The position numbers and the translations under genes were made by a program. DNA of 64,000 nucleotides from Eledone cirrhosa (lineage: Eukaryota): NCBI GenBank assembly GCA_964016885.1, contig OZ024742.1, forward strand, positions 46,624,001-46,688,000, read 5' to 3'. Under the pieces are notes generated by a model. That model was not told the origin of the DNA. It ran no database searches and saw nothing but the letters and a program-made list of their open reading frames with translations. The stretch's first letter is position 1. Every line of letters begins with the position of its first letter. This document shows, in pieces, positions 3,452-50,819 of the stretch.

Positions 3452-3500
3452 TAATAACAATAATAATAATAATAATAATAATAATAATAATAATAATAAT
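3452..3500. repeat. (AAT)n microsatellite shared as 3' tail by the Dong-like element (+) and a Tx1 copy (-)
   Basis: Read directly from the sequence. Confidence 0.95.
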
Positions 3501-4282
3501 GTTTTCTTTATTAACCACAAGGGTTTACATAAAGTAGACATTAAGGACAGTACAGGACAATACAGGACGGTACAAATGGGCATTTCTGCGTGTAAAAAAC
3601 AGAGGATGTAATACAATAACAAAGAAAAATTCCCCAATAGGGGGGAGACTTCCGAGGGTCATTTGTGGAGAAAGCCCATTAAAAGACCACAGTGACCCTG
3701 ACCACCAGGGCAAGTGCCCTCTCACAGTTTTCCACCTCTAATTTACTGACACATACTCAGAGAAGGCCCATTCATTCGGGCCATACTTGCTTCTCTCACC
3801 CATCTTTCAACAAAATGCTGGGAAGAGAGCACTTCCCTCTCTACCCTGATTTTCCTTTTCAAATGAAATTTGAAAAAGTTAATCAGGGCATCACCGAAGG
3901 GGTAAGTGCTCATCTTCAGCCCTTTCAAACGTATCCACAATACTATCTCTTTCGCCACGGGTACCAGACAGATAAAAACTGCCTGCCCTTCCCGGCTAAA
4001 GGAAGAGGGCGGGGCAATCCTCACAATGGACTCAGCTGATAGCTGGATCCGTCCTACACGTGACAGCAGGTGTTCGACATAAACCCACAAGTCAGCAATG
4101 CTCGGACACTGGACGAGTGCGTGCAGGACGGTTTCGTCGCCCTGTGCGCATCTCGGACATGCCCGGCTGACGGCACCTCCATGCATGTAGAGTTTATCCC
4201 GAACTGGCAAAGCACCCCGGTAGCACTGCCAAGCCAGGGATTTCTGGAAGTTGTCCATAGGCCCCGGCCCGAAAGTCCTTCC
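3501..4282 (-). mobile_element. 5'-truncated Tx1-type LINE (family A): ORF2 C-terminal Cys domain plus 3'UTR
   Basis: Protein LAWQCYRGALPVRDKLY..CPRC..DETVLHALVQC. The 3'UTR ends AATAAAGAAAAC(ATT)n, and the copy is flanked by (AAT)n on both sides (3452-3500, 4283-4303). Confidence 0.88.
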
Positions 4283-4303
4283 AATAATAATAATAATAAT
4301 AAT

Positions 4304-48397: not shown

Positions 48398-49836
48398 ATA
48401 TAGTAATAATAATAAATTTGAAGACTAAAATCCAAAGAGGGCTCGATAAGGATAAATATATATCAAATATATAAGAACCGTAGAGCTGTCTTCCTCCGGT
48501 TGCAACGTTTTTTGAAATATTCACTTCTGTGTTCACAGATTGACTTTGTTAGTTTCAGAAGATCCTGTTAAGGCTGAAAGCAGCGATTCTTTGCTTAAAC
48601 TTTAATCTGTTATTTTAATAAATATATATATATATATATATAGAGAGAGAGATATGACCACATACACACACACACATATATATATATATGTGTGTGTGTG
48701 TGGTCATATATGTGTGTGCTTATATATATATATATATACATATATATATATATATATATATATATATATATAGAGAGAGAGAGAGAGATAAAGTGAGAGA
48801 AAGAGAGAGTAAGGAAATGCGAAGTAGTTGCAGATGTTAAAGTCCTTTATTGATAAGGCTGTGATACATATTTCAATGACAACAATGGCCTCGTCATTCC
48901 GTGCAACCAGTGCCATGATCTCAGCAGGCAACTTCATTACATAAGAAGGTTACGTTCTCGAGGCAATCGAAACTAAAACGACAAGGGAACGGACAAAGAT
49001 GTTGTTTTTGAAGCCTTCGCCCGTTCCATATATATATATATATGAGCACAATACACACGCACTGACACAAGTACACACTCACACACACACACACATGTAT
49101 GTAAATATATACAGTATGTAACTACAAAAATTAATATCGGAGTCACAACTTTATAAATTCGAAGTCTATATCATACTGTCTAGTTGTGATACATCTTTTG
49201 GCAGAACGTGAGGCATTTATCACATAACTCACGTTTATCATATAACTTTGATAACTTTGATAGGTTTCGGCGAGTATTGGCCCAGTCCATGTCTAACTTA
49301 ATATCACATTTCTATATGACTCACGTTTGCTCTGCTGTTGATTGTAGGTATTATACAGAATAGACTATTACTCATAGCTAATCATTAATATAAATCTTAA
49401 TTTCGTATAAATCTTAATTTCTTATCCACTTTAACAGCATTGGCAAATATTTAAGATAGATTTGGTGGGCAGTTTAAATCCACGAGAGAATAGTAAAATT
49501 TGATAATCCAGCAATTTGATGAAATAATTGGTTCGATTTACAGGAGACTTTAGTTCTAAATTGACAGGATATATCCCGAGATACTACCATATTGCATTAA
49601 TTGCTGTATATATTTGCCAAGAATACACTAAAATGAGATTTACTGATGAAGGTTGAACGAATTTGTCAAATTTGCTATGAATTGGTGCTGAATTAGGTGT
49701 TGATTCAGGTAATTTAATATTGTTACATATACTGAAATATGGAAATAGATGTCATAAGTTATGGAAACAAAGGATATCAGTCTATCTATCTATCTATCTA
49801 TCTATCTATCTATCTATCTATCTATCTATCTATCTA

Positions 49837-50564
49837 GGCTCTACAGACACGGGCGCCCGGGTAGGGACCCCGCCAAAAAGATCTGTCCCAGATGCGTGTG
49901 CGACGAGGAAACCGTTGCACACGCATTGGTACACTGCTCGGGCGTAGCCGATCTGTGGGGCTATGTCGAACAACTGCTGTCAAGGGTGGGACCGATCCGG
50001 TTGACCACCGAGTCTATTGTAATGATCAAGCCGCCTCCCCCCTTCAAAGATGAAGCAGAGGCGGTGTTTCTGTGCGTAATAGCCATGGCGAAAGAGGTTG
50101 TATGGTGGACGCGTCTGAAAGGACTGAGGTCAGGCACCTTTCTCTCTGGCCAACAACTGGTCCGTTTCTTCCGATATCATTTCGGAAGAAGGATCAGGAT
50201 GGAGAGAGAGGTGCTGCACCCCAGCCGTTTCTATGAAAGATGGGTGAAAGTGGCGAGAATGGCCCGTGTGAATGGGCCTTCACTCTACATCAGACTATAG
50301 GTGAGGAAGATGAAAGACCAAGGGAGCACCCCTTCTCTGTGCTCCTGAGGAGAAGGGTTGCACACTTTTTTCGGGGGTGTGTGCGACCCCCCAAGGCGCC
50401 TCCTCTCTATTGAGGATTTTGTTAAAAATTTTATTTTTTGTTATATCTTATTTTATTTTTATATTTTGTTATTGCCTCCTCCTTATTGAGGACGCCTTTT
50501 TGTGTAAACTCCCCCCTTTGTACTTGTCCCACTTTTGATGCCCTAGTGGCAAATAAAAGAAACA
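49837..50564 (+). mobile_element. 5'-truncated Tx1-type LINE (family C) inserted in (TCTA)n
   Basis: Near-identical to 15720-16308. Flanked by (TCTA)14 at 49781-49836 and (TATC)n at 50565-50585. The ORF2 C-terminus is intact to the stop at 50300. Confidence 0.93.
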
Positions 50565-50819
50565 TATCTATCTATCTATCTATCTGTATGTATGTATGTA
50601 TGTATGTATGTATGTATGTATGTATGTATGTATGTATGTATGTATGTATGTATGTATGTATGTATGCATATGTGATAGGCGAGGTTTAATTTGGTGTGGA
50701 TCAAATCCACAATAGGAGACAACTGACGAAAATATTAAAACCAGAAATCCACTGATTTGAAAATCGATATCAAAGATTTCTAAACTAGGCATAATGGCAG
50801 AAATCTAGGTGTGTGTGGG

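What the first reader, a model, noticed from the sequence alone, without database searches (positions are those of the whole stretch)
3452..50585. Sister Tx1-type LINE families with different microsatellite targets: (ATT)n versus (TCTA)n
Seen: both family A copies (3501-4282, 4304-8027) have (AAT)n on both flanks, and the related element at 93-1315 also starts at an AAT run. Both family C copies end in (TATC)n, and the 49837 copy has (TCTA)n on both sides. Their ORF2 N-termini are closely related (MAVLRVGSLNVRCLGSSWKQ vs MAVLRVACLNARGLGSYWKQ). Known: Tx1-clade APE elements such as Kibi (TC)n and Koshi (TTC)n target microsatellites. Inference: this is a cephalopod Tx1 radiation in which related endonucleases switched between a trinucleotide and a tetranucleotide target. 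That would make a natural pair for mapping APE specificity, and a possible source of microsatellite growth. I cannot confirm novelty without a Repbase/Dfam search.
Basis: partly seen in the sequence, partly recalled or inferred. Interest (0 to 1): 0.75.

Follow-up and report, generated by a model that had tools for sequence, protein, structure and literature searches.

The report
Sister LINEs target different microsatellites
Two closely related groups of jumping genes, with thousands of copies each in this (likely octopus) genome, sit in a fixed orientation in different short repeats, one in ATT and one in TATC, likely because their DNA-cutting enzymes diverged; repeat-seeking elements of this kind are known, but these two targets were not found in the papers searched, and the pair would allow a clean test of how such enzymes choose a site.

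Summary
Confirmed, with corrections. The window holds copies of two sister groups of Tx1-like LINEs; about 25,000 shared 3' ends occur in this 3.0-Gb, likely octopod genome. Of 151 scorable copies, full-length ATT-group copies had (ATT)n at the 5' junction in 22 of 22 and TATC-group copies had (TATC)n in 15 of 17. Truncated copies had it in 12 of 40 and 35 of 72, against a 0.3-0.4% background. Target duplications of 8-23 bp run from the repeat into unique DNA, so the repeat is a target, not a tail. No added repeat units were seen (0 of 15). Corrections: the two 'family A' copies belong to different subfamilies, one a chimera. The C target is the motif TATCT, with (TA)n as a minor site. The tree shows one split, not many. 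Endonucleases are 56-68% identical and the specificity hairpin differs at one fixed residue. Di/tri/tetranucleotide targets are already known in Tx1 (Kibi, Koshi, crocodilian families). These targets were not found in 8 paper searches; Repbase and Dfam were not searchable. This scan noted the same system on other DNA of this genome.

The parts
1..90 (-). 5' UTR part of an ATT1-subfamily Tx1-like copy that continues about 5.2 kb to the left of the window
   Evidence: blastn to ATT1 references, positions 83 onward
93..1315 (-). 5' UTR and first half of ORF1 of a further ATT-group subfamily, cut off and joined to the ATT1 copy
   Evidence: 67% to ATT20 ORF1; 3 of 3 other copies of this 5' end among fetched loci follow (ATT)n; translation
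1316..1329 (-). (ATT)4 at the 5' junction, also the tail of a SINE at about 1330-1520
1876..3451 (+). 3' part of an unrelated LINE, likely Dong/R4 type, ending at the same (TAA)n in the opposite orientation
   Evidence: C-terminal CCHC motif, weak zf-RVT; family label inferred from motifs and target, not tested by a tree
3452..3500 (-). (ATT)16 tract, 3' flank
3501..4282 (-). 5'-truncated ATT1 copy (end of ORF2, 3' UTR, AATAAA, no poly-A)
   Evidence: 96% to intact ATT1 copy; 1410 candidates genome-wide
4283..4303 (-). (ATT)7 between the two copies, likely the target duplication
   Evidence: duplication inferred
4304..8027 (-). Chimeric copy: complete 5' end, ORF1 with CCHC knuckle, APE and part of RT of subfamily ATT7, joined by a deletion to the last ~49 nt of ATT1
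8028..8060 (-). (ATT)11 at the 5' junction, also the tail of a SINE at about 8061-8240
11614..16308 (+). Degraded TATC-group (TATC0) copy: ORF1 with CCHC knuckle, ORF2 from 13021, two internal deletions; true 5' end not found (may reach about 11270)
16309..16325 (+). (TATC)4, 3' flank, followed by (TC)n and (TA)n
49781..49836 (+). (TCTA)14 at the 5' junction
49837..50564 (+). Young 5'-truncated TATC0 copy
   Evidence: 97.6% to intact copy, 99.5% to several genomic copies
50565..50585 (+). 21 nt TATC repeat, 3' flank, followed by (TATG)n

Best explanation
Two sister groups of Tx1-like APE LINEs insert in one orientation into different microsatellite motifs, one at ATTATT and the other at TATCT (mostly in (TATC)n, less often in (TA)n), duplicating 8-23 bp of target, and the difference likely lies in their endonucleases. 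Shown: junction sequences, duplications, mutual exclusion, one split in the tree, and head-to-tail stacks. Inferred: target-primed reverse transcription. ORF2p nicks the purine-rich strand, at AATAAT|A for the ATT group and at TAGATA|G for the TATC group (register read from junctions; one base of doubt in the ATT group). It primes cDNA at the element's exact 3' end just after AATAAA, adding no tail. Each insertion leaves repeat on both sides, so the next copy can land beside it. Inferred and untested: the determinants are among 13 fixed endonuclease differences, and the tip of the beta-hairpin (I/S at 194) and the loop at 62-63 (SR/CQ) are the first candidates.
For: 5' junctions: full-length 22/22 ATT and 15/17 TATC; truncated 12/40 and 35/72 (39/72 with TA); wrong repeat 0/89 and 1/62, and that one is a mis-binned TATC copy; background 0.3-0.4%. 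Duplications with non-repeat letters: 26 of 151 vs 6.1 mean (max 12) in 200 shuffles, for example 8, 13, 14, 16 and 19 bp and 12, 19 and 23 bp. Genome-wide: ATT-type end + ATTATT 9484; TATC0 end + TATCT 2214, + TATAT 282, + ATTATT 0; ATT-like end + TATCTA 20, of which 10 of 10 checked are TATC2-family copies. Variant first base mirrored in the 5' duplication: 4 clear plus 1 weak of 11 evaluable TATC copies, 2 clear plus 1 weak among 19 extended ATT copies. No extra units in 15 of 15 anchored junctions. Endonuclease tree: ATT 99, TATC 96, together 99. APE fold matches L1-EN, E 9e-17.
Against: Most truncated ATT copies (28 of 40; 6 of 10 young ones) and 12 of 39 young truncated TATC copies show neither repeat nor duplication at the apparent 5' boundary. 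Several of these are internal deletions or later insertions, but not all were resolved. Endonuclease and 3' end are fully linked in the sample, so RNA-end pairing is not excluded. Fixed differences are not clearly enriched in the endonuclease (13/240 vs 11/430 in RT, p=0.08). The hairpin is almost the same in both groups, and in L1-EN a tip mutation did not change specificity (PMC1950540 passages). Most variant first bases are not mirrored. No empty site was recovered.
Confidence: 0.68

Rival explanations
1. Targeting is real, but the choice between ATT and TATC is made mainly by the RNA. The transcript is cut 10-30 nt past AATAAA, so it carries a few units of its donor's flanking repeat. These pair with the nicked primer, and a broadly AT-preferring endonuclease serves both groups.
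For: AATAAA lies only 6-8 nt before the element end and there is no poly-A at junctions. The hairpin loop is nearly identical. The first junction base is 98.5-99.4% invariant. Lead also raised in note e1-9560819.
Against: No extra repeat units between element end and target in 15 of 15 anchored cases, which pairing to a repeat tail would tend to give. Variant first bases come from the target in some copies, so the primer end need not match. The two groups use different registers.
Confidence: 0.22
2. The repeats are element-made tails and later expansions, not targets; 5' repeats come from tandem stacking or from the element's own leader.
For: Many truncated copies lack a 5' repeat. A quarter of copies lie in tandem stacks. 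Full-length 5' repeats could be co-transcribed.
Against: Duplications start with TATCT or ATT at the element end and continue into unique DNA on both sides. Interruptions in ATT tracts are copied on both sides (L276, L289). Solitary truncated copies have the 5' repeat.
Confidence: 0.04
3. Insertion is loosely AT-biased and copies merely survive in microsatellites (passive accumulation).
For: Proposed for Drosophila Waldo-A/B (PMC3812793 passage). The genome is rich in simple repeats.
Against: Fixed strand and register (95-100% at the first positions). Mutual exclusion of the two groups. TATCT is used 8 times more than TATAT, although TA runs are about 17 times commoner locally.
Confidence: 0.03

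Closest known systems
Kibi ((TC)n) and Koshi ((TTC)n), teleost Tx1 clade; crocodilian Tx1-1_Crp group ((TTCC)n/(TTTC)n) (PMC4494074 passages and section 15; PMC3812793 passage)
   Same: APE-type Tx1-clade LINEs that insert into microsatellites; related families differ in repeat unit and unit length (2, 3, 4).
   Different: Targets here are AT-rich (ATT; TATC/TA), not T/C-rich. The host is likely an octopod. Both target groups are young and abundant in one genome, with intact ORF2 copies. Whether they descend from the Kibi/Koshi branch could not be tested, because no named Kibi/Koshi sequence was returned.
Tx1L of Xenopus laevis (YTX2_XENLA, P0092)
   Same: ORF1 with CCHC knuckle, ORF2 APE-RT-zf; best named, characterised match (313 bits, 28% over 77%); sequence-specific endonuclease (PMC1950540 passage).
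   Different: Tx1L inserts in the Tx1D DNA transposon (PMC4494074 passage). ORF2 here is about 1140 aa vs 1308. Endonuclease identity is only 22-30%.
Dong (R4 clade), (TAA)n-specific in Bombyx, Anopheles and the snail Biomphalaria (PMC3812793 passage)
   Same: Same microsatellite as the ATT group; a likely Dong-type element abuts the ATT tract in this window and in 11 of 62 sampled ATT copies.
   Different: Different clade; restriction-like endonuclease (R4 clade per PMC4640811 passage; Dong's place in R4 recalled); opposite orientation in all 11.
Human L1 ORF2p / L1-EN
   Same: Same APE fold (TM 0.77-0.78), variable-length target duplications, 5' truncation.
   Different: L1 has a weak TTTT/AA preference and a poly-A tail; 161 bits vs 313 for Tx1L.

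Membership tests
APE-type non-LTR retrotransposon (L1 group) | ORF2 with N-terminal APE, RT and C-terminal zinc motif | tested here: met
   Pfam Exo_endo_phos, RVT_1, zf-RVT in L200 and L187; fold matches L1-EN
APE-type non-LTR retrotransposon (L1 group) | 5' truncation, fixed 3' end, variable target-site duplication, no LTR | tested here: met
Tx1 clade | ORF1 with CCHC zinc knuckle (feature recalled) | tested here: met
   CX2CX4HX4C in 5 of 6 regions tested; the sixth is cut before it
Tx1 clade | RT groups with Tx1 and not with L1 or other L1-group clades in a rooted tree | tested here: inconclusive
   Scores favour Tx1L over human L1 (313 vs 161 bits), but the trees were rooted on Tx1L and held no L1 outgroup
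Microsatellite-specific Tx1 (Kibi/Koshi type) | One repeat type in more than 20% of flanks (criterion in PMC4494074 methods) | tested here: met
   3' flanks 48/62 and 51/89; 5' flanks 34/62 and 50/89; wrong repeat about 0
Microsatellite-specific Tx1 (Kibi/Koshi type) | Phylogenetic position within the Kibi/Koshi branch | not testable with these tools
   No sequence named Kibi or Koshi was returned; nearest relatives are unnamed proteins at about 40%, whose loci were not found
Microsatellite-specific Tx1 (Kibi/Koshi type) | Target (TC)n, (TTC)n, (TTCC)n or (TTTC)n | tested here: not met
   Junction consensus is ATTATT or TATCTAT
Microsatellite-specific Tx1 (Kibi/Koshi type) | Endonuclease nicks the target sequence specifically | not testable with these tools
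   needs a nicking assay

The most novel reading that the evidence does not exclude
An undescribed cephalopod Tx1 lineage in which one change in an ATT-targeting APE endonuclease (a few residues, with an almost unchanged specificity hairpin) moved both the recognised period from 3 to 4 nt and the nick from a TpA to an ApG step. This founded a second radiation of thousands of copies. Intact young ORF2s of both types make it the closest natural pair for finding what sets APE specificity.
Probability: 0.35. Interest if true: 0.7.

Novelty: new variant of a known kind. Interest (0 to 1): 0.5.

Why it matters
How APE endonucleases choose targets is unsettled: loop grafts onto L1-EN changed but did not transfer specificity (PMC1950540 passages), and a review calls the mechanism of microsatellite targeting not well understood (PMC3812793 passage). 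Earlier comparisons used enzymes about 20-30% alike. Here two groups at 56-68% endonuclease identity have clean, mutually exclusive targets, several subfamilies each and intact copies, leaving 13 fixed endonuclease differences to test and an RNA-end alternative to test by swaps. For genome biology, roughly 25,000 copies each split and partly duplicate an ATT or GATA tract and seed stacks shared with Dong-like LINEs and a SINE. This also bears on using these microsatellites as markers.

Tried and rejected
DNA searches of the genome with two family C stretches returned nothing, not even the window (common words are skipped); a pattern search replaced them. Laying public contigs on 49100-51000 gave no joint across the insertion, because the repeats are skipped, so no empty site was seen; small-share runs were not interpreted. 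The metagenome scan for the 40%-identity sister clade gave only 17 distant loci (27-44%), which were not analysed, so the outgroup's target is unknown. The IQ-TREE run timed out before the RT tree; RT and C-terminal trees are FastTree. Direction of the switch: RT nests TATC inside ATT (0.98), while the endonuclease and C-terminal trees show two sister clades, so direction is not claimed. 'Pure (TCTA)n target' was rejected: the median perfect run at the 3' side is 7 nt and 49 of 91 are 7 nt or less. 'Tail addition grows the repeat' was not supported (0 of 15). One script stopped before scoring L310-L313; their 5' junctions were not read. The Tx1L endonuclease paper PMC85248 is not held. Five of 156 copies were left out (4 without a reference hit, 1 without flank).

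Full report
Observation. The repeats and elements are at the stated places, and the two ORF2 N-termini read as quoted. The window lies in a 3.0-Gb animal genome. An Argonauta hians protein is 62% identical to ORF2, so an octopod host is likely (inference).

Scale and families. A 17-nt pattern from the shared 3' end matches 25,005 places (control 104), and a family C pattern matches 5,008. I fetched 140 regions around the first-listed hits on one contig (0.7-29 Mb), a positional sample of one region, and recovered 156 3' ends. They fall into at least four subfamilies followed by ATT and four followed by TATC. Full-length copies are 5.6-6.0 kb, with an ORF1 carrying a CCHC knuckle and an ORF2 of about 1140 aa with APE, RT and zf-RVT. 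About ten sampled copies have an open ORF2. The best named match is Xenopus Tx1 ORF2 (313 bits), against 161 bits for human L1 ORF2p. The predicted endonuclease fold matches L1-EN. The window's two 'family A' copies differ: 3501-4282 is subfamily ATT1 (96%), and 4351-8025 is ATT7-like (89-93%) with only the last 49 nt of ATT1.

Target or tail. Copies were binned by best internal match and 151 were scored for an 8-nt perfect run near each junction. ATT group: 5' side 22/22 full-length and 12/40 truncated; 3' side 20/22 and 28/40. TATC group: 5' side 15/17 and 35/72 (39/72 counting TA runs); 3' side 12/17 and 39/72. An ATT run occurred at 0 of 89 TATC-group junctions on either side. A TATC run occurred at 1 of 62 ATT-group copies, which proved to be a mis-binned TATC copy. 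Background is 19 and 16 of 5000. Duplications containing non-repeat letters were found in 26 of 151 copies, against 6.1 on average (max 12) in 200 shuffled pairings; several of the six ATT cases are tandem neighbours. The clearest start exactly at the element end with TATCT or TATAT and run 8-23 bp into unique DNA. In two ATT copies an interrupted tract is copied on both sides (L276, L289). Against: many truncated copies show nothing at the apparent boundary (6 of 10 young ATT, 12 of 39 young TATC). In the 30 best ATT1 hits, 12 had a boundary within 1.5 kb: 7 at ATT, 4 that look like internal deletions, and 1 at unrelated DNA.

Exclusivity and motif. Genome-wide exact counts: ATT-type end plus ATTATT 9,484; TATC0 end plus TATCT 2,214, plus TATAT 282, plus ATTATT 0. 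The reverse pattern gave 20 hits, and 10 of 10 inspected were TATC2-family copies. The TATC group reads a short motif: positions 1-5 are 88-98% fixed and then decay, and the median perfect run is 7 nt against 18 nt for the ATT group. Pure (TA)n sites on both sides exist (L303, L304, L307, L308).

Register. If the first repeat base came from the template, a variant there would not recur in the 5' duplication. Among all 13 TATC0 ends with a non-T first base, 11 had a readable 5' site; 4 clearly and 1 weakly show the same variant upstream. Of 144 ATT-type ends with a non-A first base I fetched 30 and extended 19; 2 are clearly mirrored and 1 weakly. The rest are likely later mutations. This puts the first nick immediately before the first repeat base: bottom strand TAGATA|G for the TATC group, and AATAAT|A for the ATT group, where the clear cases leave one base of doubt. 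The registers are inferred from junctions, not measured. In 15 of 15 truncated copies whose duplication could be anchored, the 3' run was no longer than the 5' run, so no tail is added.

Evolution. In the endonuclease tree (IQ-TREE, 44 rows) ATT and TATC groups are each monophyletic (99, 96) and sisters (99). The C-terminal tree agrees. The RT tree nests TATC (1.0) inside ATT, with the Argonauta protein near ATT1/ATT3. One branch separates the targets in all three trees, so a single switch suffices. ATT as the ancestral target is only hinted. Endonuclease identity between groups is 56-68%, RT 66-80%. Thirteen endonuclease positions are fixed within and differ between groups. By alignment to the L1-EN scaffold and the numbering in PMC1950540 (passages), the hairpin between T192 and S202 corresponds to residues 189-199, where only 194 (Ile vs Ser, near L1 P197) is a fixed difference. 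Positions 62-63 lie in another surface loop. That paper found loop shape to matter more than loop sequence, so these are candidates only.

Arrays. Within 150 nt downstream, 14 of 62 ATT copies are followed by another ATT-group copy, 11 by a Dong-like 3' end (all opposite strand) and 13 by a SINE. Of 90 TATC copies, 23 are followed by another TATC-group copy and 1 by a best hit in the ATT group (not checked). The window's left end is such a stack.

Literature. Eight searches were run. PMC4494074 (passages and section 15) lists Kibi (TC)n, Koshi (TTC)n and crocodilian Tx1 at (TTCC)n/(TTTC)n. PMC3812793 (passages) lists Waldo, Mino, Kibi, Koshi and Dong (TAA). PMC13282606 (passages, one supplement row) counts 80 L1-Tx1 families in Octopus vulgaris, 13 recently active, with no target mentioned in what I saw. 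PMC8967140, PMC4640811 and PMC8869645 (passages) name no such target. Kojima and Fujiwara 2004 was seen only as cited. Repbase, Dfam, subscription journals and figure 3 of PMC4494074, which labels further targets, could not be seen and may hold these targets. Earlier unreviewed notes of this scan describe the same system elsewhere in this genome; none were found in other genomes.

Verdict. A real, abundant pair of microsatellite-targeting Tx1-like groups: a known lifestyle with targets not found in my searches, and a good test pair. Interest 0.5.

Noticed in passing
window 1330-1520, 8061-8240 and many others: An abundant SINE ends in a sequence resembling the Tx1 3' end and is followed by (ATT)n, so it may be mobilised by the ATT group; its tails also serve as landing sites. 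The lead came from note e1-10315818; I only compared the ends.
   Followed up: partly
window 1876-3451 (+); 11 of 62 sampled ATT copies: Likely Dong/R4-type LINE ends abut the same ATT tracts, always on the opposite strand.
   Followed up: partly
window 4351-4352; G000:C1:18933930, C1:23272620: Chimeric copies with parts from different subfamilies of the same target group; none across groups was seen in the sample.
   Followed up: partly
L129, L187 vs L198, L199: Subfamily ATT1 has two unrelated-looking 5' ends on a near-identical ORF2, suggesting 5' UTR/ORF1 replacement.
   Followed up: no
window 8748-9924, 27104-27786, 62914-63094: Long palindromes, 85-95% self-complementary.
   Followed up: no
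window 33253-43048: 36-bp satellite of about 263 copies, followed by 10 copies in inverted orientation; two frames are open for over 3100 codons.
   Followed up: no
window 43681-45952 and about 54400-59000: Further long tandem arrays with long open frames.
   Followed up: no
window about 10975-11270 (-): Short stretch that reads like an unrelated RT fragment (YIDD-like motif, read by eye) just upstream of the C copy; may have displaced its 5' end.
   Followed up: no
P0003-P0068: A large unnamed clade of about 1150-aa proteins at about 40% identity is the nearest outgroup; its targets are unknown (one search found no loci).
   Followed up: partly
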